Shown one piece after another: positions 1,299-26,222 of a stretch of 26,934 bases of DNA. How positions within the stretch are numbered: position 1 is the stretch's first letter; each line of letters begins with the position of its first letter. The stretch comes from Octopus sinensis (Eukaryota). The translations under genes were made by a program, and so were the position numbers. The notes under the pieces are model-generated. The model searched no databases. It worked only from the letters and a program-made list of their open reading frames with translations, and was not told where the DNA came from. The stretch covers positions 1 through 26,934 of the forward strand of contig NW_021836078.1 of assembly GCF_006345805.1 (NCBI RefSeq), written 5' to 3'.

Positions 1299-3632
1299 CC
1301 GTATATTTCCGCGTATAAGACGACCTTTAAATCCTAAAATTTACCCTAAGAATTTGGGGTCGTCTTAAGCCACCATTCTAAAAATCAAATTTTGTATTTT
1401 AGGTGATTTTATAAGTAAGCTAACCTCGACCTCAGTGCAATAACCATGGACAAACATGAAGAGATTAACAAAATAAAAAAAAAATTATAATATAGGTAAT
1501 AAAAACATTTTTACTTTATATATTATTGGAATATCTTCATAATAAATAGCCTATTCGAGAGATAATTCATCATCATTGAAGTCAACTTTTATCTCTGCAA
1601 GCTCGACTGAGAAAGTGTAAACATCGAGTTATGGTTGCGCTCACAATAAACTTTATCTTTTGTTAACCTTTCAAAAATTTGAACAGTTATGTATAACTGT
1701 AGTAATAACATTTAGAATAACATATTTATATATTTAATAAACTATCTATTATCATTTGGTGGTAAATAACACAATTTGGATTACACACAACCTTTATTTT
1801 TCAATAAAATTATTTTACAGTAGTTGCAGTTAAAACATAAGACATTATAGAATTTTTTAATTTCCTATAAAGATAAATAATATTAATAAAACATCAAATC
1901 TGCCACATGTATTTATCTAAAACCCATCAAATTCCTCACAATCATTACTATCTGTTTCTAAAAGTTTCTCATACATATCACAAGATTCATTACATATGTC
2001 ATCATCGTAAGGATTCCAGTCTGGTTCTGGTGAATCGATTTTGACTTTGTCGTCGATATTGTACAGAATATCATCTTCGGTACCACTCATGACATTAGAG
2101 ATACTGCATTAAAAAAATTATCTTATCGCATTTTCCACTTTAACTTTGCCCTATACCTTTATAACAAAATCACAAAGAATACCAAGTTCCACCATTTGTA
2201 AAAGATTTTTCTCTATTCACCATCCAGTCATTTCATTGCTCTCTCTCGCGTTATCTTTAAATGGCTTGTTTAAACTGACATTAAGTGGCTGCAGTATAGA
2301 AGTCAAACCATCAGAAATAACAGCAATATCAGCATTGGTTTTGGATAACCGGGTTTTAGCATTTGCCGTTAAGTGGCTACAAAACATATCTCAAATCAAT
2401 AAACTGTGTTTGTATGCCACCTGGCTGCATGTTCCAAATACTCTCAATCCATAATTTCACACCACTCTCATCCATCCACCCTTTTTCGTGAAAATGAACA
2501 AAAACGCTAGGAGGAAAATCTATTTTGGACTTTGTTTTACGTTTAAAAATAACTATGGGTTTCAATTTCGTACCGTCAGCCATGCAGTATAATACCACCT
2601 TAAACCTTGTTTCCTCATATCCAGTGCTTTTAACGTGCACTATTTTTACTCCTTTCAAATCTCCTGTTTTGTTACTCAAAATGTCAATGTTTAATGGCGT
2701 TTCATCCATATTTCCAATATGAGACAATGGAAACTGATACCTTTTTCTCAGTTGGATGATGAACTGGTGAAAACTGGTTACTCTGTGATCGAGATCTTTC
2801 GAGAGTTTTTGGGTGATTTTTATTTTCTCCCTAATTACCAGATTTTTTCTGTTCATAAGAAGATTGCATCAACCTACTGTTGCTTTAAAAATTTACTTTC
2901 TTTTCTTTTTGCATGATTTAGCCCATTTTAGGGCATACGATCTTATTTTATTTCGTGTGACAATGTAGCCATCTTGTCTCTGCCGGAGTACTCATTCTGC
3001 TTCATCATTTTCCAACTTCGGCCAACGAGTGCTTCCTCTTCTCATTTCACATTTTTGTTTGTGCATTTGTCTTAATTTTCCTTATTCTTTCTCCACTCTC
3101 GTACCATCTTCTCGGTAACAACGAATGTTCTAACTGCAGCGCGATTGTTCAAGCTCTTGGCTACTGCTATAACTTTCAATTTTCTTCTTTTTGCTGCTGG
3201 TTGCATATTGGTATGGGTATAAAATGATTATAAATTTCACTTGACTAGACAGTTTGTGATTTTATATAAAGTATAGGTAAATGGTTATTAATGTACCAGG
3301 CTGACTGTAACTGTTTAGAAGATTTCAGTTATATGAACCACGATTATCGTATTGTTGTTAGCGGTTGTTATGACAACGATAAAGTTTTGATAAAGAAGGA
3401 GAACCAGGTTCCCTTTCAGGTGACGTGTGTATGAAAAATCATGATGTAGAAACGGATTTATTTTGTTTATTTTAATTTCTAAGGATATAGTAAGTAAAAA
3501 CAAAACAAACAAACATTTGTAATATCATCATCATATGACCAATATTTCTAAAAATATCTGTTGTTGCAAAAGCTAGCCTGTACACAATAGTTTTGTAATT
3601 TTGCAGTCGTCCTATACCGCGAAATATACTAG
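1299..3632 (-). mobile_element. Full-length decayed pogo/TcMar-Tc2 (Passer/POGK-like) DNA transposon
   Basis: TA|CCGTATATTTCCGCGTATAAGACGAC at 1299 and GTCGTCCTATACCGCGAAATATACTAG|TA ending 3632 are imperfect ~26-bp TIRs with TA TSD. A CCGTA start is typical of Tc2/Kanga-type elements. Internal transposase on the minus strand. Confidence 0.9.
1917..3206 (-). pseudogene. Disrupted pogo-family transposase (Brinker-like DBD + CENP-B HTH + DDE_1)
   Basis: Manual translation: MQPAAKRRKLKVIAVAKSLNNRAAVRTFVVTEKMVREWRK...WPKLE...; ORF 2377-2856 has IGNMDETP, KSTGYE, MADGTKLKPIVIFKRK, KGWMD; then I*DMF-(35 aa)-QPLNVSLNKPFK (third Asp replaced by Asn); CSISNVMSGTEDDILY; ends EEFDGF*. Several stops and frameshifts. 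Confidence 0.9.
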
Positions 3633-3646
3633 TATAATTATATCTA

Positions 3647-3776
3647 TATTATATATATATATATATAGATAATATATATATAGGTGTGTGTTGTGGTGTG
3701 TGGTGGGGTGGGGTGTGTGTGTGTGTGGTGTGTGTGTGTGTGTGTGTGTGGTGTGTGTGTGTGCGTGTGTGTGTGT
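3647..3776. repeat. (TA)n/(GT)n microsatellite
   Basis: Directly visible. Confidence 0.9.
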
Positions 3777-4024
3777 AAATAAGTTTTATAATTTCGCTTT
3801 TCCAATTGAAAACGAATAATGTTGACCTCATAAGAGTTTATAAAACTTCAAGAGAACGTCAAGTAATTCTCATTTGGAACAGTGAAACTCGAAGCAGATA
3901 AAGCTATAAATTATAGCGTGTAAATAATGGGCTAAAAAAAAACTTTGGATAGAAAAAGTGGGGTTCGAATCCACATTTTCTGTAAACATGAGCGTAAAAA
4001 TGAATGAAAAAATTAATCAATATA

Positions 4025-4219
4025 CCGTAATTTCCGGCAAAGAAGTCGACGTAGTATATAGGGTAAACATGTAGTACAAACATTGACGCATCATCACTCT
4101 CCTTTCAAATCCTGCTGTATTTCAAGCGGTGTTTTCGGACTTCAAAATCGTTTTGGTGTATAAGTCGACCTACCTTTTTGGGGCTGTAAATTTCGATCTG
4201 AAAAATTCGACTTGTATGG
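4025..4219. mobile_element. Short non-autonomous Tc2/pogo-like MITE
   Basis: TA|CCGTAATTTCCGGC...AAGTCGAC at left; TATAAGTCGACC...AAAAATTCGACTTGTATGG|TA at right (right TIR internally shortened). Same terminal style as the 1299 element. Confidence 0.6.
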
Positions 4220-4828
4220 TATGCTGTTGAGATAATTTATTCGATTGAGGCTACTGATTCATTCCGTCACTACTCCGGTTTCTTAGTTTTTGTGTCACAC
4301 ATTTACTCTGGAGGCAAAGAGATTCTCAAATATACTTTTACCTTGTTAAATTCTTCACCAACCGAAGCTCTGAATAGTTTAGGTTCCTTTTGGTAATCAT
4401 TTCATTACATTTTACATACAATATTGCCAACCCGCTTGGTAAAAGTCATGAATGAACGTCACACAATTTTATTTTATCTTTCTTTGGGTGTTGTGTCGTG
4501 GTTAAGTTAAGCAAGAAACCATTATTTAGCTTCTCTTTCGTTGAATGTCTTGAAAATGTTGGCCTAATTTTTTATTCTCTCTGAAACTGTGCATTCAAAA
4601 AAAAAAAAAAAAAGAAAAGTTAATATTATCAAAAATATTATTTTCATAATTACTATTATCTCAATTTTGAACGAAACAGAAATAATATAACAAGAAGAAA
4701 AAAAAAATGATAACAATATAAAATTGTTGGCCATTTCTTTGAAATACTAAGTTCTGTATTTCCACAAGCAAAAATGTAAGTTTGTGAGAACTCAAGAGGT
4801 TTCCATTGAAATAGAAATTTTGCTATCG

Positions 4829-4829
<1 letters not shown>

Positions 4830-4893
<64 letters not shown>
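4830..4893. repeat. (ATT)n microsatellite
   Basis: Directly visible. Confidence 0.95.
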
Positions 4894-5124
4894 TTCATCA
4901 TCATATTTATATGTTGTTTGTTTAATTTCTTAAGGTTGGAGGCAATTAAAGTTTACATTGAATGAAAGAAAAAAAAAGAAACGTTCCATCTACATTTAGT
5001 CAAAGCATTTTTTTTTTCCTATAAATAAATTTAAAGGTTTATGGCGCTGTTTATTTTGAACTTCTATAGCCGAATTTTTAGTATTTGTCTACGAGCTGTG
5101 CTTTTTCTTCTTTCAGTATTTGTT

Positions 5125-5413
5125 TCACACACACGTACATACACACGCACACACACATGCAAAAGCATTCATTTATGCACGCATACATATATACACACAT
5201 TAAAGCACACGTTTATATGAATTATATAAAAAGAAAAATAGCTTACATATACAGATACATACGTGTGCATATTTATACTTAAAAATTTAAACATTCGCAC
5301 TTGTGTATATGTATGAATGTAATGTATGCATGTATGTATGTATGTGTTGATATATATACATATATGTGTGTGTGTGGTGCATTTATAGCTCTCTCTCTCT
5401 CTCTCTCTCTCTC

Positions 5414-5453
<40 letters not shown>

Positions 5454-5699
5454 TATGTATGCATTTATATATGCATATATATGCATATATATATATATAT
5501 ATATATAATATATATTATATATATATATATATATACCACATATTCACATATGTATGCATTTATATATATATGCATATATATATATACATATATATGCTTA
5601 TATATATGCACATATGTATGCATTTATATATATATATATGCCTTTATATATATGCTTATATATGTGTGTGTGTTTGTGCGTGTGTGAGTGTGTGTGTGT

Positions 5700-5734
<35 letters not shown>

Positions 5735-5830
5735 GTATAAGCACCGAGACATTTATGCGCACGCGTGCGTGTATATATTTTAAGATATTCACAAGAGCAT
5801 ATGCAATAGTACGTGATAGCACGGTACTAC

Positions 5831-5862
<32 letters not shown>
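5125..5862. repeat. Low-complexity (CA)/(TA)/(CT)/(GT) region including repeated CACATATGTATGCATTTATATAT units
   Basis: Unit seen at ~5450, ~5545 and ~5609. Confidence 0.85.
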
Positions 5863-5864
<2 letters not shown>

Positions 5865-6090
5865 AGTGGAAGATAGAATGAGTAACAGAGATAGAGATTG
5901 TTAGAAAGCATATAAAGACACACTTTTGTTCTTCACAAAAGGTGAAGGAATTGTGGTGAAAACTCAGTGAAAATGCAAGATAGATGAGTGGCTTAATGAT
6001 GGCGACACAACTATAGACCGTTGTGGGTTTTGGCAGAGTCATAGTTTTCCTTTTAGGAACGAGAGAAAAACAACAAAATAAAAAAGAAAA

Positions 6091-6135
<45 letters not shown>

Positions 6136-6295
6136 AATAGTAGTAATAGAAGAAGAAAAAGAAGAAGAAAAAGAAGATGAAGAAGAAGAGGAAGAAGAAG
6201 AGGAAGGAGAAGAGGAAGGAGAAGAGGAAGGAGAAGAGGAAGAAGAAGAAGAAGAAGAGGAAGAGGAAGTGGAAGAGGAAGAGGAAGAGGAAGAG

Positions 6296-6334
<39 letters not shown>

Positions 6335-6372
6335 TAATAATAATAATAATGATGATGATAATAATAATAATA

Positions 6373-6412
<40 letters not shown>

Positions 6413-6645
6413 TAAGAAGAAGAAGAAGAAGAAGAAGAAAAGAAGAAGAAGAAGAAGCAGAAGAAAAGAAGAAGAAGAAAGGAAGAAGAAGAGAAGAAGA
6501 AGAAGAAAAGAAGAAGAGAAGAAGAAGAAGAGAAGAAGAAGAAGAAGAAAAAGAAGAAGAAGAAGATAAAAAGAAGAAAAAAAGAAGAAGAAAAGAAGAA
6601 GAAGAAGAAGAAGAAGAAGAAGAAGAAGAAGAAGAAGAAGAAGAT
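6091..6645. repeat. Compound trinucleotide array (AGT)n-(GAA/GAG)n-(AAT)n-(GAA)n
   Basis: Directly visible. Confidence 0.95.
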
Positions 6646-6847
6646 AAATAAATGAATAAACAAAATATCAAAATGTTGCGAATCGGAAAAATACGTCGTT
6701 AAACAGGCGAATTGAATGATATAAAGGAATAGTTGGGCAAAGAGAAATGGTTGAGAAGACAAGAACCAAGACTATCAACAACTGCAAGAAAATTCATCTA
6801 AATAATCAACAACAATGACAGCAGTTGCAGCAATAATGGCAGCAGCA

Positions 6848-7116
6848 CAACAACAACAACAACAACAACAACAGTCATGATGATGATGATGATGATGATG
6901 ATGGTGGTGGTGATGATGATGCTGAATATGATGATGGTGATGATGATGATGAATATGATGATGATGATGAATATGATGATGATGATGAATATGATGATGA
7001 TGATGAAGATGATGATGATGATGCTGCTGCTGCTGATGATGATGATGCTGATGATGCTGATGCTGATGCTGCTGCTGCTGCTGATGATGATGATGATGCT
7101 GATGCTGAATATGATG

Positions 7117-7150
<34 letters not shown>

Positions 7151-7171
7151 GATGATGATGATGATGATGAA

Positions 7172-7214
<43 letters not shown>

Positions 7215-7225
7215 TTGATGATGAA

Positions 7226-7270
<45 letters not shown>
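6848..7270. repeat. Compound trinucleotide array (CAA)n-(GAT)n-(GCT)n-(GAT)n
   Basis: Directly visible. Confidence 0.95.
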
Positions 7271-7387
7271 AAGGACAAAATTATGGTGATGCTGATAATG
7301 ACAAGTGTTATGGCGGTGGTGCAAGTAATCCTCTAATGTCTTCATTTGTTATGGATAGCAAAAGAAAAAAAATAATAAATAAATGAA

Positions 7388-7426
<39 letters not shown>

Positions 7427-7922
7427 GTATACTAAAACGTTTTGAAATATAAAAAAAAAGTACAAACTAAAATTGAAGTTTTTGAGCCAGTGTGCATAAG
7501 GCCAGAAAGTTTGGTGAAGGGCAAAGTCCTTTAAAAGTGTAAAGACAAACAAACAAACAAACAAAAATCCAAAGGAACGAGAATACCACCGGAAAACGAC
7601 TGGTAGGTTGATAAAAGAAAACAAAAAAAAAAAAGTAAAGAAAATATGCCAATGGAAGAGAACAAAATTATTTTTGTTCGCTTTGTTCTATTCACATAGT
7701 TTGGGATTATTTTTATTTTCTTCTGTAAATGTTTGCATTGAGCCATGTAGAATAAGTTAGAAGTTAGAAGGAAAGCAAACAACGCTGAAGAAACATGAAA
7801 TTTATAACGTTTTTGAAACGAAAATAAACTAACTGGATTACATGCTTTGCTGGTTTCATTATATGTATTGTTTAAAATTCCAGTTGCATATACGCTGTAC
7901 GACGTTCGTCATAAGTATGTTG

Positions 7923-8302
7923 TTTCCAGTGAATCCCTGTCGCATATACGTGAATTTTAATTTGTTTTCTTTCTCTCTCGGTTTCAACTTGAAATGGTTC
8001 CAAGAATTTCTTCGAAGAGTTCATAGAGAAACCTTCGTTAGAGTACCACTAAGTTTTCTTGTTGAAAACCAACTTTTATCAATAGACAGGTTCAAAGTTT
8101 GAGTAGCATGGGTTTCCAGTGAATCCCTGTTGCATAAGCGTGAATTCTAATTTGTTTTCTTTCTCTCTCGGTTTCAACATGAAATGGTTCAAAGAATTTC
8201 ATCGAAGAGTTAATAGAGAACCCTTCGTTAGAGTACCACTAAGTTTTCTTGTTGAAAACCAGCTTTTATCTATAGACAGGTTCAAAGTTTGAATAGCACG
8301 GG
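7923..8302. repeat. 190-bp tandem duplication (7923-8112 / 8113-8302)
   Basis: Both units start TTTCCAGTGAATCCCTGT and end AAAGTTTGA.TAGCA.GGG, with scattered substitutions. Confidence 0.95.
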
Positions 8303-8462
8303 CTAGAATTTTAATGATACAAGCAACGTGGATCGGAAATTTAGATAACTTGAAACATAAAAATGTTTTGTAGACTATAAATCATTAAGGTGAATCAAGT
8401 AATGGAAGAAAAGGCCTCCTTAATTGGGAAGGAACTATCTTACGAATAATTCGACATAGATA

Positions 8463-9267
8463 AGGCTTGATTGTGTGGTTAAGAAACTCGCTTTACAACA
8501 ACGTGGTTTCAGGTTCAGTGCCACAGCGCGGCAGTTTAGGGAAATGTTTTCTACTATAGCCATGAGCCGATCAATGCCTAGTGAGTGAATTTGGTTGACG
8601 GAAACTGTGTAGAAGGCGACGAGCTGGCAGAAACGTTAGCACACCGGGCGAAATGCGTAGCCGTATTTCGTCTGCCGTTACGTTCTGAGTTTAAATTCCG
8701 CCGAGGTCGACTTTGCCTTTCATCCTTTCGAGGTCGATAAATTAAGTACCAGTTACGCACTGGAGTCAATATAATCGACTTAATCCGTTTGTCTGTCCTT
8801 GTTTGTCCTCTCTGTGTTTAGCCCCTTGTGGGTAGTAAAGAAATAGGTATTTCGTCTGCTGCTACATTCTGAGTTCAAATTCCGCCGAGGTCGACTTTGC
8901 CTTTCATCCTTTCGGGGTCGATTAAAGAAGTACCAGTTACGCACTGGGGTCGATATAATCCACTTAATCCGTTTGTCTGTCCTTGTTTGTTCCCTCTGTG
9001 TATAGCCCCTTGTGGGCAGTTAAGAAATAGGAAACTGTGTAGAAGCCCGTCGTGTTTTCATTTTCGTTCTCCATTTTTCTATCCTAGTGTGTTCTGTCTT
9101 TTAGAAGAGTGTATAGTCGAAACGGAAAAGACGTTTCCTTCTTCCTCACCCCATTCCTTGAGTGTACACTTTTTTCCGTTTTTTTTGCTTAGTTTTGTAT
9201 TTACTCGACTAAAATTCCTCAAGGTGGTGCCCATCATAGCCGCAGTCTAATGACTAAAACAAGTAAT
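8463..9267 (+). mobile_element. Diverged SINE B (CORE-like, tRNA-type head) interrupted by SINE A; tail remnant at 9203-9267
   Basis: Matches the well-preserved copy at 14431-14877 (TGTGTGGTTAAG...GGTTCAGT...CTACTATAGCC...GGAAACTG...GCCCGTCG; tail CTCGACTAAA...GCAGTCTAATGACTAAAACAAGT). Confidence 0.75.
8615..9029 (+). mobile_element. SINE A (tail-1), partially dimeric, with 15-bp TSD
   Basis: Head GGCGACGAGCTGGCAGAAACGTTAGC, body GCCTTTCATCCTTTCG.GGTCGAT.AA...GTACCAG, tail ...CCCTTGTGGG...AAGAAATA. Second body+tail at 8847-9029. TSD GGAAACTGTGTAGAA at 8600-8614 and 9030-9044. Confidence 0.9.
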
Positions 9268-9543
9268 AGGGTCAATATCAGCAGGTTGTTGTTATTAGTT
9301 GTTAAGGTCAGGCCAGTTCTGGCTGAGAAGGACCTACCATCAAAGTTGTTATTACGACATAATGCCACAAGAATTAGACTATTAAATGCGTCCTTCCTTT
9401 TGCTTTTTGGACGGTTAGGTTCCTAAGCTGTTGACATGACGAAAATTTATCTACAAATTTCTGTCTGGTCGAGCGACTGCTTCGAGGGTCTCTTGATAGT
9501 TCGATATTTCTTTGTTGCGTTGATGTATGTATTGGACGCAAAC

Positions 9544-9687
9544 GCAGTATGGCTAAATGGTTACGAAATTCGTTTCCAAACTACGAGGTTCTAGGCTGGA
9601 TCCTATTGCGTGACATCTTGGGCAAACGTCATTTTCTATAGCCTCGGGTCTATCCATAAATTGACAGTGAGATTCAGTCGAAAACTG
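9544..9687 (+). mobile_element. Degraded SINE B head/core
   Basis: ...GCGTGACATCTTGGGCAAACGTCATTTTCTATAGCCTCGGGTC aligns to the core at 14500-14540. Confidence 0.6.
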
Positions 9688-10013
9688 CTATTCAAAATCT
9701 AGAGTCTTGTCACACACAACATTACGTTAATTTTGCCTGCGAATTACATTGAGATGAGACGAGTTTGTGGAACGCTCCTCTGTTACATGTTAATTCAAAA
9801 GCATGCAATTCAGTTAATCGTACAAACTGAATACTCATCGTCAGACGACGGAGATCCACCATTACATGTCGTCTGCTCCTTTGATTCTTTGAAGTTGGCT
9901 TTTCAAGCCAGTTTGAGAGAGTTGTTCAGAAATCCATTTATAATTATAATTAAATGATTTTCTTTATTTTACTCTTGATACTTTCAGTCACAAGTCTTTA
10001 TTTGTATATTTAA

Positions 10014-10371
10014 CCCCTTGAATACGGAAAGTAGATATATCGGCTCAAAATTTTATTACCGTTAACTGCAGAAAGCAGTTTTACCTAGCAGCTTTGGAGA
10101 AAAACTTATGCTACGAGAAATGGAGACAGTACCAGTGATAAATTTTACAAAAAGGCAATTTTTCAGATTTTCTTAATTTTTCTCACATATTTTATCAAAT
10201 ATCTCTTTACAGAACAAGAATAAAATACTTTTAGTGGTGGATATGAAAACTGTGATTACAGGAGATGCTGAACAAGTATTGCAGAAGCAGAAAATATCAA
10301 TTCTAACTTTTTTGGTGGATAAAAAGCATCATTACGGGAACGCCATTAAATTTAATTACGCAATCAATAGG
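10014..10371. mobile_element. Possible piggyBac-type MITE
   Basis: TTAA at 10010-13 and 10372-75 flank CCCCTTGAATACG / CGCAATCAATAGG (9/13 inverted match, CC...GG termini). Confidence 0.5.
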
Positions 10372-10491
10372 TTAATACACACACACGCGCGCACAATGTT
10401 ATAGTTTATCTGAAAGAAATTTATTATATGGTTCACAGGAATTTATGTATTAGTTGACCGACTTAATTTGTAGCTGCCAAAAGACCAAACA

Positions 10492-10745
10492 TTCTTTCTT
10501 CTAAAGGCACAATCCTTTCTTCTAAAGGCACAATCCTTTCTTCTAAAGGCACAAGGCCTGAAATTTTGGGCGACGGGGTTAGTCGATTAGATCGACCCAG
10601 TATGTGACTGGTACTTGATTTATCGACCCTGAAAGGATGAAAGGCAAAGTCGACCTCGGCGGAATTTGAACTCAGAACGTAGTGACAGGCGAAATATCGC
10701 TAAGGATTTCGTCCAGCGTGCTAACGATTCTGCTAGCTCGCCGCC
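10492..10745 (-). mobile_element. SINE A with tail-2 ending in three 21-bp tandem repeats
   Basis: Reverse complement of the A head/body. Tail unit (+ strand) TCCTTTCTTCTAAAGGCACAA x3 at 10492-10554. Confidence 0.9.
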
Positions 10746-11079
10746 TTAGATCAGATATTAATATCTAATCTGAACATCTAAATATCAGAGATGAACTGTT
10801 AGTTATACGAAAATTTTTCAGACCAGTAAACTCATATTTAGAGTTGTGTTAGTGAACCTAGTGGAAAAGAATGTTGTTACTTTAATTTCGGAAGTAAAGA
10901 ATCTTAATCCGAATACAATCTGATATAATGTAAATAATCAGGAATACAACACTAGATGGTGATTGGCTATCAAGTGTATTCTTTTGGCGGCTATCAAGTG
11001 CAATCTTTTATTCTTTTATTCTTTCACTTGCTTCAGTCATTTTGACTGTGGCAATGCTGGAGCAACACCTAAGGTGGTT
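10701..11079 (+). repeat. Left arm of an inverted duplication (partner 14067-14400)
   Basis: The reverse complement of 14067-14400 aligns over SINE A head + ~220-bp spacer + SINE B tail; this arm has an extra ~45 bp. Confidence 0.9.
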
Positions 11080-11278
11080 TTAGTCGACTCCAGGACTTAT
11101 TCTTTGTAAGCCTAGTACTTATTTCATCGGTTCTTATATCGAACCGCTAGATTACAGGTTACAGGGATGTAAACACATCAACATCGGTTGTCAAGCGATG
11201 GTGGAGGGGGGACACAAACAGACACGAACACACAAATACATGCATACATACATACATGGGTTGGGAAGCAAGCTTCTT

Positions 11279-13295
11279 TATTTCATTAAATTTGCCACAA
11301 GGGCAGCACACATAGAGAAGCTTGAGGGCTAGACAAAGACATTAATGGGATGAATGATGATGATATATGGATGATAAGGATGAGAGAAGACGAAAAGCGC
11401 CCGCCGACTTTCGCTTCTCTAAAACATTGTTCTGTTTTTCTTCTTTTTTTTTTAAACACCATGAGGCAATAAACCTCTTACACAGTTCAAAATTAAAAAT
11501 AAAACACAAACACGAGGCAATAATCCTCTCACTTTTTACATTTTTAGTCTCTTTTTGAGGTAATACACCTCTTCAATTTTTCCGCCCGGCCAGGCTCCTC
11601 GCTTCATCGAAGCACCTGGTCCGTTCCGAACTTAAAGGTTTCAACATAAATCTGAAGGAGTCCTTCGGAAAGGAGTTCGTTATCTTCCACAGATCGTTCT
11701 CCCATATGACCTCCGCAGCCACCTGCGAAGGCCACTCAGGATCCTCCGTGTAGGACAGAAGCCCCTCCCACCGGCACTTCCTTTCAATTTTTTTAATTTC
11801 ATTTTGCAAGGTTCCTCCCTTGTGGAAGAGGACCAAAAATTCCTCCTCCAGCAGCACACCCGCCAAAGGTGAATCGGGACACGCCGGCAGCGTGTCACAA
11901 CCCGCCGGCAATGTCCCGTTTTTCTATTTTCTTTTCTTTTTCCCATGGGCTGCGGGAGGGCGGTGTTCCCTTGCTGTGTCCAGCAGGTCCTCCTTTTCTC
12001 CCGCAGCTCTCGGGTTCTTCGGTGGGCAACCATTGTTGCCCACCTTTCGCTTTCGTTTTTTCGAGGAGGTGGAAACCTCCTCGACATCCTCCTCCTTCTC
12101 TCCCTCCATTGAGGGAGCAGGGAGTGGTTCCTCTGTTAACTGCTCCAGGATCCTATTTTGGTCCTTGGGGCAGTTTTTCTTGATGTGGCCGGTCTCCATT
12201 CACAGGTGACACTTGTGGGGGGGGGCGTCCCTCGAGCATCACCGGATACCTAGACCCGGCCATCCTAAAAAAATCTGGGAAAACCAGACTTTCGGCTGAT
12301 TGGGTCCATAGGGTCAACACAGCTTTTGATCCCTCCCAATCAGCCGCAGGCAAAATTTTTACGTTGAGCAGCTTGGTACTGCTACCACTCAGACCCCGGC
12401 GGATAGAGTCCTCTATCCACTCGGGCTCAATTCCGGGTGGCAAGCCGCAAACCCAAGCCCTCGTAAACTTCTTTCCACAATAACTGGGAAGAAACATTAT
12501 TTCCTTCCCCTCGGGGAAGCTTCTTTGGGGGAGTCAAATAGCAACCAGACCGTTTCAAATTTGACTCCCGTGAAATAAATTTAATAGCTGGCATGTATTC
12601 TGCCAGCTCTTTCAAAATTGTGGCTTTCGGGAAGATGGTTATGATATCGAGCGACTTTGAATAAGTCCTCAACACCACCGTCTTCCTTTCGAGCTCTTTT
12701 AGCCATGATTTGGGAGGTGTTAATTCCCACACTAATATTTCGTTTGCCATTTTTTTTAAAATAAAAAGTTAAAATACAGTTCGTCAATACGTTTTCAAAT
12801 AAAGAAAGGTACACACACACAAAAAAAAAAAGAAAGAAGACACAACAGAAGAGAAGAAAAAATAAAAATAACAGTTCGAATAAAGTTTTTTTTTATTTTA
12901 AATAAATGATAGCTGTGAAAAGAGAGTTCAAATCCAGGCAAAGAAATAAATTTTCGGCCGAAAGGTACTCCTGGCCAATCCTTTTAATCCACGTGGGCAC
13001 AAAAATTTTAAAATACAATTTCTCACAATTATGTGAGACAACACACGTCTCCACCGTAAGGCAGAAAAAAAGCTTCGAATCCAGTAAGGACTCCCTGCCT
13101 GTTCAAAAAAATAAAACCAACAGGCAACAAATCCTACCGGACTCAAAAAGCAAAATGTCTTACCTTACAGTAGAGCGTCTTTCAGTTCAACTTTCGCCAG
13201 CGTGACGACTTCAACAGGTGAGTGAAGAACACTGTTTTTGTTCTTTTTTCTTTTTAGGACGGAGCTCAAGGCTAGACATCTTCTCAGTTCAACCC
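11279..13295 (-). mobile_element. Non-autonomous non-LTR retroelement encoding only ORF1 (L1/Tx1-like, HAL1-type architecture)
   Basis: Perfect 15-bp TSD GGAAGCAAGCTTCTT at 11264-11278 and 13296-13310. ~545-bp 5' region, ORF1, ~295-bp 3' region ending ...CCCTTGTGGCAAATTTAATGAAATA. No RT, endonuclease, LTRs or TIRs. Confidence 0.8.
11573..12750 (-). pseudogene. Disrupted ~390-aa gag-like/ORF1 nucleic-acid-binding protein with CCHC zinc knuckle
   Basis: ORF fragments 12427-12750, 12153-12497, 11924-12199 and 11573-11911 join across frameshifts/stops. ...TRAWVCGLPPGIEPEWI...LEGRPP-KCHL*METGHIKKNCPK is CX2CX4HX4C with the second Cys mutated to TGA, followed by acidic and KKRKRK stretches. Confidence 0.8.
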
Positions 13296-13482
13296 GGAAG
13301 CAAGCTTCTTACCACACAGCCACGCCTGCACTTGCGTATGTATATATATTTTTTCTATCGTGGGTAGAAAGCCAGGTGAGGATGTAAGCAATTGCACCAA
13401 ACTCAATACTTTATTGGTACTTTATTTTATCAATTCCGCAAGGAACAAAAAGGAAGTTGTAAATGTAAACATCTTTTTTACT

Positions 13483-14066: not shown

Positions 14067-14400
14067 AACCAATTTAGGTGGTGCTCCAGCATGGCCACAG
14101 TCAAAATGACTGAAACAAGTAAAAGAATAAAAAGCCAATCACCATCGTGTGTTGTATTTCTGACTGTCTACTTTATAGCAGATTGTATTCGAATTAAGAT
14201 TCTTTATTTCCGAACTTAGAGTAACAATATTCTTTTCCACTAGGTTCACCAACACAACTCTAAATATGAGCCTACTAGTCTGAAAATTTTTCGTATAACT
14301 AACAGTTCATCTCTGATATTTAGGTGTTCAGATTATATATTAATATCTGGTCTGAGGCGGCGAGCTGGCAGAATCGTTAGCACGCTGGACGAAATCCTTA
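14067..14400 (-). repeat. Right arm of the inverted duplication (partner 10701-11079)
   Basis: See left arm. Confidence 0.9.
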
Positions 14401-14430
14401 ATGTATACATTTTCAATATATCGACATATA

Positions 14431-14623
14431 GGTGCAGGAGTGGCTGTGTGGAAAGTAGCTTACTTACCAACCACATGGTTCCGGGATCAGTCCTACTGCG
14501 TTGCACCTTGGGCAAGTGTCTTCTACTATAGCCTCGGGCTGACCAAAGCCTTGTGAGTGGATTTGGTAGATGGAAACTGAAAGAAGACCGCCGAATATAT
14601 ATATATATATATATAATAATATA

Positions 14624-14877: not shown

Positions 14878-15028
14878 TATATATGTCCAATTCTACCTAA
14901 ATGTGAAAAGTACACTATTAAAGCTGTTTTGGACAACACAACATTATTCAGAGAGTGCTGGAAGAGAGTTAAGAGAAGCTCAAATATATTCACGTTTGAT
15001 ATGAATATTGATTCATAATTTAAGTGTT

Positions 15029-15206
15029 CAGACGTGGCTGTGTGGTAAACAGTTTGCTTTCCAGTCACATGGTTCCGGGTTCAGTCACTCTGCATGGTAC
15101 GTTGGGTGAGAGTCTTCTATTATGGCTTCAGGTCACCAAAGCCTCGTGAGCGGATTTAGCTGAGAAAAACTGAATGAACCCCGATGTGTGTGTGTGTGTG
15201 TGTGTG

Positions 15207-21137: not shown

Positions 21138-21621
21138 TGGGTGTGTGGTTAAAAAGCTTTGCTTTGCAACCATGTGGTTTAGGGTTCAGTCTTACTGTTC
21201 AGCACCATGGGCAAGTGGGCAATAGTCTTCTACTTTATCCCCGGGCCGATCAATGCCTTATGAATGACCTTCGTAGACTGTGTGGATGTCTGCCGTATTT
21301 GCATTTATATATGTGTGTGTGTGTTTGTGTGTGTGTGTCTGTGTGTGTATGCATGTATGTATGTATGTATGTATGTATGTATGTATGTATGTATGTATGT
21401 GTGTGTGCATGTGTGTGTCAGTGTGTGTGTTTGTGTGTGTGTGAATGTCTGTTTGTTGATGTCCCTGTAACCTAGCGGTTCGACGAAAGGAAACGATAGA
21501 ATAAGTAGCTGACTTGAAAATAAATACTGGTGCCGATTTGTTCAACTAACCTTCTCAAGTCTGTATTCCAGCATGGCTGCAGTCCAATGACCGAAACTAG
21601 TAAAAGATACAAAATAAAATA
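21138..21621 (+). mobile_element. Diverged near full-length SINE B
   Basis: Head, CACCATGGGCAAGT core, microsatellite, tail ...CCAGCATGGCTGCAGTCCAATGACCGAAACTAGTAAAAGATA. Confidence 0.85.
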
Positions 21622-25540: not shown

Positions 25541-26222
25541 GCGTTGAATAGTTGAGAACCTTGCTTTCCAGCAATATGGTCTTGGATTCAGTTCCATTGC
25601 GTGGCATCTTGGGCAAGAGTCTTCTGCTGTAGCTCCGGGTCGATTTGGCGGACGGAAACTGAAGCCTGTCGGCGAGCTGGCAGAAACGTTAGCACGAAGA
25701 GCGGAATGCTTAGCGGTATTTCGTCTGCCGTTACGTTCTGAGTTCAAATTCCGCCGAGGTCGATTTTGCCTTTCATCCTTTCGGGGTTGATAAATTAAGT
25801 ACCAGTTACGCACTGGGGTCGATATAATTGACTGACTCCCTTTGTCTGTCCTTGTTTGTCCCCTCTATGTTTAGCCCCTGGTGGGCAATAAAGAAATAGG
25901 AAACTGAAGTCTGTCGTATACATACATACATACATACATACATACTACATACATACATAAACAAGTGCGCGGTGGGTAGGGGTGTGCGCGCACACGCTTC
26001 CAGGTGTGTGTTTTTGTGTTTATCTCTCCCTCACTGCCTGACAACCGGAGGTGGTTTGTTTGCTTTCCTGCAATTCAGCAGTTCTGCAAAAGAGACTGAT
26101 GGAGTAAGTGTCAGACTTAAAGAAAATTACTTAAAGAAAAAGTACGATTTGTTCGACTAGACTTTTCAAGACGATGTCCCAGCATGGTCGCAGTCCAATG
26201 TCTGAAGCAAGTAAAAGATAAA
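25541..26222 (+). mobile_element. Diverged SINE B interrupted by SINE A
   Basis: Core GCATCTTGGGCAAGAGTCTTCT; tail ...CCAGCATGGTCGCAGTCCAATGTCTGAAGCAAGTAAAAGATA. Confidence 0.85.
25671..25898 (+). mobile_element. Well-preserved SINE A (tail-1) with 17-bp TSD
   Basis: TSD GGAAACTGAAGCCTGTC (25654-25670) / GGAAACTGAAGTCTGTC (25899-25915). Confidence 0.92.

What the first reader, a model, noticed from the sequence alone, without database searches (positions are those of the whole stretch)
8600..9044. SINE A inserted into SINE B at the same nucleotide twice (here and at 25654-25915)
Seen: both tail-1 SINE A copies sit in SINE B in the same orientation, with the TSD starting at GAC|GGAAACTG. Each TSD (15 vs 17 bp) reproduces its own host's private sequence, and the A copies look less diverged than their hosts, so these appear to be independent events rather than copies of one composite. 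Known: in TPRT the first-strand nick fixes this junction, and Tx1-clade LINEs are often target-specific. Inference: a site-preferring endonuclease directs this SINE into another SINE.
Basis: partly seen in the sequence, partly recalled or inferred. Interest (0 to 1): 0.72.

Follow-up and report, generated by a model that had tools for sequence, protein, structure and literature searches.

The report
SINE landing repeatedly inside another SINE
Two copies of one short jumping repeat sit at exactly the same base inside older copies of a second repeat, and the genome holds at least 183 such joints made one by one; the spot is a minor landing site that likely reflects a short-sequence preference of the copying machinery, a modest variant of known behaviour.

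Summary
SINE A (227-bp unit) sits in SINE B at GAC|GGAAACTG at 8616-9029 (a dimer) and at 25672-25898 (a monomer), each with its own 16-18 bp duplication. The exact joint occurs 183 times in the 2.72-Gb genome, against 4 for the control. Of 40 sampled joints, 35 are A in B at this base. TSDs of 11-21 bp were found in 33 of 38 A-in-B copies. Hosts are older than inserts in 32 of 33 pairs, and A-in-B copies share no diagnostic mutation. They are independent insertions, not a composite.

About 0.1-0.3% of A ends lie at this site. B has a second, busier hot spot, GGTA|AGAAGCTTG, with 432 joints. The joint with A's own head, GGC|AGAAACGTT, has 3,362. TSD-verified sites show a short preference: C or A before the nick, RGAA, TATA or GGTAT after it. 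Enrichment for B over motif-matched sites is modest, about 3-9 fold. No partner LINE or endonuclease was found. Landing class tracks A lineage, so guidance by read-through RNA remains a rival. The scan had already noted this SINE's self-targeting on other DNA of this genome.

The parts
8463..8615 (+). Host SINE B copy 1, 5' part up to the insertion (old subfamily, ...GTTGAC|GGAAACTGT...)
   Evidence: nhmmer with a B profile: 8463-8607, model 7-150; sequence; 79% identity to the B profile at non-CpG sites
8600..8615 (+). 5' copy of the target-site duplication GGAAACTGTGTAGAAG
   Evidence: 16 of 16 identical to the 3' copy
8616..9029 (+). SINE A dimer: GCG leader, head+body 8620-8845 (unit ends GGGTAG..AAATAG), second body 8846-9029 (ends GGGCAGTTAAGAAATA)
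   Evidence: blastn and nhmmer; 95% identity to the A profile
9030..9045 (+). 3' copy of the TSD
9046..9052 (+). Remainder of the B tail (CCCGTCG)
   Evidence: compared with the B profile tail GGAAACTGAAAGAAGCCCGTCG
25553..25671 (+). Host SINE B copy 2 (model 23-163, with an internal deletion), ending in the 5' TSD copy
   Evidence: nhmmer; 78% identity to the B profile
25654..25671 (+). 5' TSD copy GGAAACTGAAGCCTGTCG
25672..25898 (+). SINE A monomer, full length (model 1-227, ends GGGCAATAAAGAAATA)
   Evidence: 93-94% identical to the best 40 genomic copies
25899..25916 (+). 3' TSD copy GGAAACTGAAGTCTGTCG (1 mismatch)
25917..25958 (+). (TACA)n microsatellite tail that follows B copy 2
14431..14608 (+). 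Younger, uninterrupted SINE B (model 2-179) with an unused site GATGGAAACTG; further unoccupied B copies lie at 9547-9687, 15027-15200 and 21138-21278

Best explanation
Both SINE A copies are separate target-primed insertions into older SINE B copies at the same nick (GAC|GGAAACTG), and this spot is likely a secondary, look-alike target of a short-motif preference (C or A before the nick, RGAA after it) of the still unidentified machinery that copies SINE A. Shown: the insertions are independent and recurrent at one nucleotide; the hosts are older; TSDs are 11-21 bp; 5'-truncated copies exist. B has two hot spots, both of the form [A/C]|RGAA. The commonest RGAA-type joint is with A's own head (GGC|AGAAACGTT). 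Inferred: a LINE endonuclease makes the first-strand nick after C/A; reverse transcription starts at ...AAAGAAATA; the second nick 11-21 bp downstream gives the TSD. On this reading B is hit often simply because, at roughly 400,000 copies (extrapolated), it is the main genomic carrier of GGAAACTG.
For: The sequence shows both insertions with their TSDs. The joint occurs 183 times against 4 for the control. Of 40 joints sampled by a fixed rule from the first 100 listed, 39 carry A and 35 are in B at this base; 4 are at GGAAACTG outside B and 1 is a chance match in an old LINE-like repeat. A TSD was found in 33 of 38 A-in-B copies, 11-21 bp with median 15, and 19 have host-specific variants in both copies. 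The host is more diverged than the insert in 32 of 33 pairs (medians 85.7% vs 94.7%). There is no age correlation (rho -0.19, p 0.28). A-in-B copies are as old as other A copies. No column separates A-in-B copies from other A copies beyond ascertainment. In an unbiased sample, 49 of 84 full-length A copies had TSDs. Their sites show position -1 = C in 24 and A in 16 of 49, +1 never C, +2 = R in 44, +4 = A in 39. Ten of these are RGAA-type sites in ordinary DNA. Other joints: A end+AGAAACGTT 3,362 and A end+AGWAGCTTG (B head) 432. In the 800-kb background, 44 of 73 GGAAACTG and 54 of 399 GGAAAC lie at the B site. The observed 35 of 39 gives an odds ratio of 5.8 (p 0.001), or 3.1 (p 0.04) if CpG-decayed B sites are counted. 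At hexamer level about 47% of events are in B against 13.5% of sites.
Against: No partner LINE, shared LINE tail or endonuclease was found. The young LINE family I reached ends in (ATT)n and lacks A's tail, so the enzyme step is inference. A position-weight model built from all 49 sites predicts a 0.044% share for the B site and 0.097% for A's head. The observed shares are about 0.1-0.3% and up to 8.7-15%, so a single short motif under-predicts both. Landing class follows lineage. RGAA-landing copies differ from TATA-landing copies at A position ~125 (A in 1 of 77 vs 14 of 24, p 5e-10). T-type ends land on GGT.. in 9 of 22 cases against 3 of 95 for C-type ends. The A end|AGAAACGTT joints lack visible TSDs, so they could be head-to-tail template jumps rather than insertions. 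The background comes from 80 stretches centred on A copies in the first 14 Mb of one contig. The split of GGAAAC events into TG and non-TG was matched by hand from two lists.
Confidence: 0.55

Rival explanations
1. RNA-guided priming. SINE A has no Pol III terminator, so its RNA would read into the flank of its parent copy. That flank-derived 3' extension would anneal to nicked DNA that resembles it, so a lineage would inherit the landing class of its parent (RGAA.., TATA.., GGTAT..), and B's GGAAAC would be caught by the RGAA lineage. The endonuclease would add only the weak C/A preference before the nick.
For: The A profile consensus has no TTTT, and the first TTTT lies a median 87 nt past the A end (n = 118; +26 and +113 in the two window copies). 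Landing class tracks lineage (A position ~125, p 5e-10). Ends of the internal-unit type (GGGTAR) land on GGTAT.., which is what follows that unit in dimer RNA: 9 of 22 against 3 of 95, with 4-9 nt matches to GGTATTTCG in TSD-verified sites. In locus L057 the 9 bases GGAAACTGA lie between the A end and the TSD, as if copied from a parent in a B site. Precedent: for R2Ol, lengthening the 3' flanking target sequence on the RNA from 4 to 100 nt raised retrotransposition from 12% to 96% (PMC6530143, passages).
Against: The full ...AAAGAAATA is kept before the target, and RGAA sites in ordinary DNA match AGAAAC over only 2-5 nt, with no extension beyond AGAA (A at +5 in 2 of 8). B's first base G mismatches an AGAAAC tag at the primer's 3' end. 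A search for carried tags at offsets 3-35 among 34 further copies gave no clear case. The preference at -1 lies outside any annealed stretch. No RNA data were examined.
Confidence: 0.3
2. A dedicated, target-specific endonuclease (Tx1-like) recognises SINE B itself and steers SINE A into it.
For: The position and orientation in B are fixed (35 of 39). The excess over motif-matched sites is 3-9 fold. The Tx1 clade is known for such targeting (PMC4494074, passages). Earlier notes of this scan report Tx1-like LINEs in SINE heads of this genome; I did not test them.
Against: About 0.1-0.3% of A ends are at this site, against 90% of SINEU-3 copies in its Mariner target (313 of 347, PMC4494074). TSD-verified A insertions occur at GGAAAC outside B. 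A second B hot spot and many ordinary sites share only [A/C]|RGAA. No LINE was found at the site.
Confidence: 0.1
3. Chimeric cDNA: during retrotransposition of B, the reverse transcriptase jumps from B RNA to A RNA and back. A and its host would then be the same age, and the 'TSD' would be a re-copied stretch.
For: It would also give a fixed start and a variable end to the duplicated stretch. 5' fillers with partial A heads (L007, L058, L069) show that template switching occurs in this system.
Against: Hosts are older than inserts in 32 of 33 pairs, and the ages are uncorrelated. A has ordinary TSDs in non-repeat DNA.
Confidence: 0.03
4. A single composite A-in-B master element was copied.
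For: None beyond the recurrent joint.
Against: Host B sequences and TSDs differ from locus to locus and belong to different B subfamilies. Whole B heads lie upstream of A. A-in-B copies share no diagnostic mutation. Monomers, dimers and trimers all occur.
Confidence: 0.02

Closest known systems
SINEU families and Tx1-Mar LINEs of crocodilians (Kojima 2015, PMC4494074; passages read)
   Same: SINEs preferentially inserted at fixed regions and orientation inside another transposon family. There are independent insertions with TSDs, tandem stacks at one site, graded preference between families (90% for SINEU-3, 23% for SINEU-1) and two hot regions in the target.
   Different: There the target is a Mariner DNA transposon, and a LINE partner with the same preference was found. 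Here the target is another SINE, the share is about 0.1-0.3%, no LINE partner was found, and ordinary DNA with a 4-6 nt motif is also used.
Short-motif nick preference of LINE endonucleases, as in L1/Alu at TT|AAAA (recalled; no paper read here)
   Same: A degenerate few-base preference at the first-strand nick, variable TSD length and 5' truncation. High-copy repeats that carry the motif become recurrent targets.
   Different: The motif here is [C/A]|RGAA, TATA or GGTAT, the tail is not poly(A), and landing class differs between SINE lineages.
R2-type priming aided by co-transcribed downstream target sequence (R2Ol in zebrafish, PMC6530143; passages read)
   Same: A read-through 3' extension that matches the target would help priming. 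This fits lineage-linked landing classes and the lack of a terminator in SINE A.
   Different: R2 is an autonomous element with a restriction-like endonuclease and a single rDNA target. For SINE A neither RNA ends nor annealing were tested.
Self-targeting SINE with Tx1-like LINEs noted earlier in this scan (e1-9583264, e1-9556421, e1-9502757; AI notes)
   Same: Very likely the same SINE family. I independently counted 3,362 joints at GGC|AGAAACGTT and saw body repeats starting at position 44.
   Different: Those notes concern sites in the SINE's own head. The B-tail site (183 joints) and B-head site (432 joints) described here were not in the notes I was shown.

Membership tests
LINE-mobilised SINE inserted by target-primed reverse transcription | Variable-length target-site duplications flanking each copy | tested here: met
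   33 of 38 A-in-B copies (11-21 bp); 49 of 84 full-length copies in the unbiased sample
LINE-mobilised SINE inserted by target-primed reverse transcription | 5'-truncated copies with intact 3' ends | tested here: met
   L041 (from position 141), L056 (190), L066 (71), L113 (172, with TSD), L240 (about the last 25 nt, with TSD)
LINE-mobilised SINE inserted by target-primed reverse transcription | 3' tail shared with a partner LINE in the same genome | tested here: inconclusive
No LINE with A's tail among 30 top RVT_1 loci or 20 large-contig LINE loci. Tail-only hits in 800 kb had no ORF.
tRNA-derived SINE | Head recognisable as tRNA | tested here: not met
   Rfam gave no tRNA match at E<=1 on window 8400-9100 or on loci with young A and B copies. 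ARAGORN found none. Box-B-like motifs are seen by eye only.
Target-specific Tx1-type LINE/SINE system (as SINEU-3 with Tx1-Mar) | Most copies lie in one target repeat | tested here: not met
   268 of 132,833 unit ends are followed by GGAAAC, about half of them in B. At most 3,029 of 34,806 C-type ends join A's head.
Target-specific Tx1-type LINE/SINE system (as SINEU-3 with Tx1-Mar) | Fixed position and orientation within the target | tested here: met
   35 of 39 A joints with GGAAACTG lie at B profile position 143, same strand. The strand is fixed by the search pattern itself.
Target-specific Tx1-type LINE/SINE system (as SINEU-3 with Tx1-Mar) | A Tx1-clade LINE occupies the same site | tested here: inconclusive
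   Not found. PF02994 gave no hit, and none in its control genomes either. The clade of the (ATT)n LINE was not determined.
Composite (fused) SINE | Copies share the same A-B junction context and host mutations, with TSDs outside the composite | tested here: not met
   Hosts and TSDs differ from locus to locus; no diagnostic mutation

The most novel reading that the evidence does not exclude
SINE A's landing sites are programmed by where its parent sat. Because the element lacks a Pol III terminator, each RNA carries a piece of its parent's flank, and that piece picks out matching nicked DNA. Landing classes (own head and RGAA sites including SINE B, TATA sites, GGTAT sites) are then inherited along SINE lineages without any change in the enzyme. 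This would be a heritable, RNA-guided target choice in a non-autonomous retroposon.
Probability: 0.3. Interest if true: 0.7.

Novelty: new member of a known kind. Interest (0 to 1): 0.36.

Why it matters
Recurrent SINE-in-SINE joints at one base can be mistaken for composite families or shared-ancestry markers. Here at least 183 independent events produce the same joint, so such insertions are homoplasy-prone in this genome. The case also gives measured rates: two hot spots in SINE B and one joint with A's own head, useful for working out what the copying machinery of this very abundant SINE recognises. The link between SINE lineage and landing class, if it holds genome-wide, would make RNA-guided target choice testable in a SINE.

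Tried and rejected
Partner LINE hunt, all negative.
- Window ORFs gave only a DDE_1 fragment.
- Tail-only A hits in 800 kb had no long ORF.
- The 30 top RVT_1 loci showed no A tail.
- Of 20 LINE loci on large contigs, 17 belong to one young family that ends in (ATT)n and lacks A's tail; the other three also lack it.
- PF02994 gave no hit, and its control genomes gave none either.

L047, the one sampled joint without A, looked like a LINE end at GGAAACTG. Its relatives continue through ...AAAGAAATGGGAAACTGTCATATAACC..., so it is a chance internal match.

Rfam and ARAGORN gave no tRNA call for A or B.

A search for flank tags carried between the A end and the TSD, at offsets 3-35 in 34 copies, gave no clear case. 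L095 shows an A followed by a 35-nt remnant of a tail-2 relative.

Earlier-notes look-ups by sequence and by place near the window returned nothing, and no note held GGAAACTG.

Paper searches found no report on target sites of octopus SINEs. This covers only the held library, and one search matched 'sinensis', not SINE.

One search timed out and was redone. One search failed on a script error and was redone.

Full report
**What is in the window.** SINE A is a 227-bp unit, GCGAGCTGGCAGAAACG...GGGCAATAAAGAAATA. At 8616-9029 it sits inside a diverged SINE B, flanked by GGAAACTGTGTAGAAG at 8600-8615 and 9030-9045. At 25672-25898 a second A sits in another B, flanked by GGAAACTGAAG[C/T]CTGTCG at 25654-25671 and 25899-25916. 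The first A is a dimer: head plus body at 8620-8845, then a second body at 8846-9029. Both duplications begin at the G after GAC of B's ...GGTAGAC|GGAAACTGAAAGAAGCCCGTCG tail. The window is a whole small contig of a 2.72-Gb genome. Earlier notes of this scan call the organism an octopus, and SINE B also looks octopod to me from memory; I did not test this.

**Recurrence and independence.**
- The joint AAAGAAATAGGAAACTG occurs 183 times, against 4 for the reversed control.
- I fetched 40 of the first 100 listed places, taking list index mod 5 equal to 0 or 2. Of these, 39 carry A.
- 35 are in B at the same base, including one locus (L071) with two successive A copies at that base.
- 4 are at GGAAACTG outside B (L051, L057, L066, L072). 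1 is a chance match inside an old LINE-like repeat.
- I then added the two window copies and L002, a further case met by chance among the 39 best A copies.
- Of these 38 A-in-B copies, 33 have a recognisable TSD of 11-21 bp, median 15. In 19 of them both TSD copies share departures from the B profile. Some of those departures mark an older B subfamily (GTTGAY|GGAAACTGT..) and are not private.
- Hosts are more diverged than inserts in 32 of 33 pairs. Median non-CpG identity is 85.7% for hosts and 94.7% for inserts. The two ages are uncorrelated.
- Hosts are older than 84 random B copies (92.1%, p 3e-5). A-in-B copies are as old as 78 unbiased A copies.
- No alignment column separates A-in-B copies from 99 other A copies, apart from two columns fixed by how the samples were drawn.

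A composite master and a B-to-A-to-B chimeric cDNA are therefore rejected. These are independent nested insertions.

**How strong the targeting is.**
- Unit ends GGGYARTAAAGAAATA number 132,833, and 268 of them (0.20%) are followed by GGAAAC.
- The C-type ends (GGGCAR) number 34,806. By my hand count they make up 77 of the first 100 GGAAAC events listed.
- Matching the lists by hand for contigs 1-3, 20 of 46 GGAAAC events continue with TG.
- Of the sampled TG events, 35 of 39 are in B.
- Of the first 20 non-TG events, 3 are at the B-tail site, 1 at a B-head site, 6 at a G-variant of A's own head, and about 10 in other DNA.
- So roughly 47% of GGAAAC events lie at the B site. That is about 0.1% of all unit ends and 0.28% of C-type ends.
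- In 800 kb of background (80 ten-kb stretches covering 94 of the first 100 C-type ends), B fills 2.3% with 123 hits. GGAAAC occurs 399 times, 54 of them at the B site. GGAAACTG occurs 73 times, 44 of them at the B site.
- At the 8-mer level this gives an odds ratio of 5.8 (p 0.001). It falls to 3.1 (p 0.04) when the 27 CpG-decayed B sites are counted as once available.
- Per GGAAAC hexamer, the B site is used about 6-9 times more often than elsewhere.
- Against a uniform spread over all positions, the excess is about 15-44 fold.

**The wider target spectrum.**
- In the unbiased sample, 118 terminal A ends could be placed, and 49 of 84 full-length copies had TSDs.
- The pre-insertion sites show C (24) or A (16) at position -1, no C at +1, a purine at +2 (44), T at +3 (34), A at +4 (39) and T at +5 (31).
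- The classes are C|TATAT, C|AATAT, C|GGTAT and a minority C|AGAA.
- B's site GAC|GGAAAC fits the last class.
- So does a second B site, GGTA|AGAAGCTTG. It was seen with TSDs in L134 and L037 and has 432 exact joints, more than the finding's site.
- The joint of an A end with A's own head, GGC|AGAAACGTT, has 3,362. It accounted for 14 of 95 C-type terminal ends in the sample.
- Those head joints show no TSD, so I cannot say whether they are insertions resolved by homology or head-to-tail template jumps.
- A weight matrix from the 49 sites predicts shares of 0.044% for the B site and 0.097% for A's head. Both are below what is observed, by 2-6 fold and by about 100 fold. One short motif is therefore not the whole story.

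**Lineage effect.**
- Copies landing on RGAA-type sites (in B, at A's head, or at AG.. in ordinary DNA) differ from copies landing on TATA at A position ~125. A is found there in 1 of 77 against 14 of 24 (p 5e-10). They also differ at position ~137.
- Ends of the T type (GGGTAR) are the internal units of dimers, as in window copy 1. 53,637 of 98,027 are followed by GGTAT.
- When terminal, T-type ends land on GGT.. in 9 of 22 cases, against 3 of 95 for C-type ends (p 9e-6).
- T-type ends join A's head in 333 of 98,027 cases. For C-type ends the figure is at most 3,029 of 34,806.
- The A profile has no TTTT. The next TTTT lies a median 87 nt downstream. A Pol III transcript would therefore carry flank sequence.
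- L057 carries GGAAACTGA between its A end and its TSD.

These points fit priming helped by read-through RNA, as shown experimentally for R2Ol (PMC6530143, passages). But RGAA sites in ordinary DNA match AGAAAC over only 2-5 nt, and no RNA was examined.

**The enzyme.** I found no partner LINE. The best RVT_1 loci, and 20 LINE loci on large contigs, lack A's tail. Seventeen of those 20 form a family 95-99% identical to the reference copy that ends in (ATT)n. 'Tx1' is therefore untested here. Earlier notes of this scan report Tx1-like LINEs with a similar tail and self-targeting of this SINE's head on other DNA of this genome. I used them as leads only.

**Comparison with what is known.** The closest published case is SINEU with Tx1-Mar in crocodilians (PMC4494074, passages). 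There, 313 of 347 SINEU-3 copies and 23% of SINEU-1 copies lie in one Mariner family, at two regions, with tandem stacks. The present case works alike in kind but is far weaker for B. It has a SINE as target and no demonstrated LINE partner. Searches of the held library found no paper on target sites of octopus SINEs.

**Verdict.** The 'directed into SINE B' reading is overstated. The B-tail site is a minor, look-alike target. B is hit repeatedly because it is the main carrier of the motif, with a modest extra preference. The most interesting residue is the lineage-linked landing class.

Noticed in passing
window 8620-9029; loci L005, L009, L023, L112 and others: SINE A occurs as head + n bodies: positions 1-227, then 44-227 repeated, up to 10 units in L112. 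Internal units end GGGTAG/GGGTAA..AAATAG|GTATTT and the last unit usually ends GGGCAA. Dimers are flanked by a single TSD (L005: GGTATAC..), so they move as units.
   Followed up: partly
genome-wide; L083, L206 (five units), L141, L156, L158: A second kind of array has units 11-227 joined ...AAAGAAATA|AGAAACGTT, with 3,362 exact joints. No TSD is visible at these joints, and only the first unit keeps positions 1-10.
   Followed up: partly
genome-wide; L134, L037, L253: A second hot spot for SINE A lies in SINE B's head, GGTA|AGAAGCTTG, with 432 exact joints. About 93 of the first 100 listed are the AGAAG variant and about 7 the AGTAG variant (hand count).
   Followed up: partly
L071 (about 200-1010): Two successive SINE A insertions occupy the same B site, each followed by its own GGAAACT.. 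copy: a stack.
   Followed up: no
L057 (around 1009): Nine bases, GGAAACTGA, lie between the A 3' end and the TSD (CGTACGTA/CGTACATA) at a non-B site, as if carried over from a parent copy in a B site.
   Followed up: partly
L190-L194, L196-L207 (large contigs): A young LINE family: copies are 95-99% identical over about 1.9 kb to the reference copy, open frames of 500-611 aa run through the RT, and the 3' end is (ATT)n. It is unrelated to SINE A's tail.
   Followed up: partly
L095 shows a tail-1 A joined to a remnant of such an element inside one TSD.
   Followed up: no
window 14356-14608: A SINE A head fragment (positions 1-43, ending just before the GGTATTT body start) is followed 28 bp later by a young, complete SINE B with an unused GATGGAAACTG site and a long (TA)n tail.
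   Followed up: no
L007, L058, L069 (5' junctions): Extra partial copies of the A head (for example AGGCAGCGAACTGGCAGA) lie between the TSD and the true 5' end. These 5' fillers suggest template switching at the end of reverse transcription.
   Followed up: no
window 2377-2868 (minus strand): An open frame with a DDE_1 transposase match (E 1.4e-5): a DNA-transposon remnant.
   Followed up: no
one search list, contigs numbered about 1794-13428: The best RVT_1 matches, many with identical scores, lie on small contigs rather than on the chromosomes-sized ones.
   Followed up: no
38 A-in-B loci against 84 random B copies: B copies hosting A are older than random B copies (85.7% vs 92.1% identity to the profile), and many belong to a subfamily with GTTGAY|GGAAACTGT. 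Either A was active before the youngest B burst, or that subfamily is the better target.
   Followed up: partly
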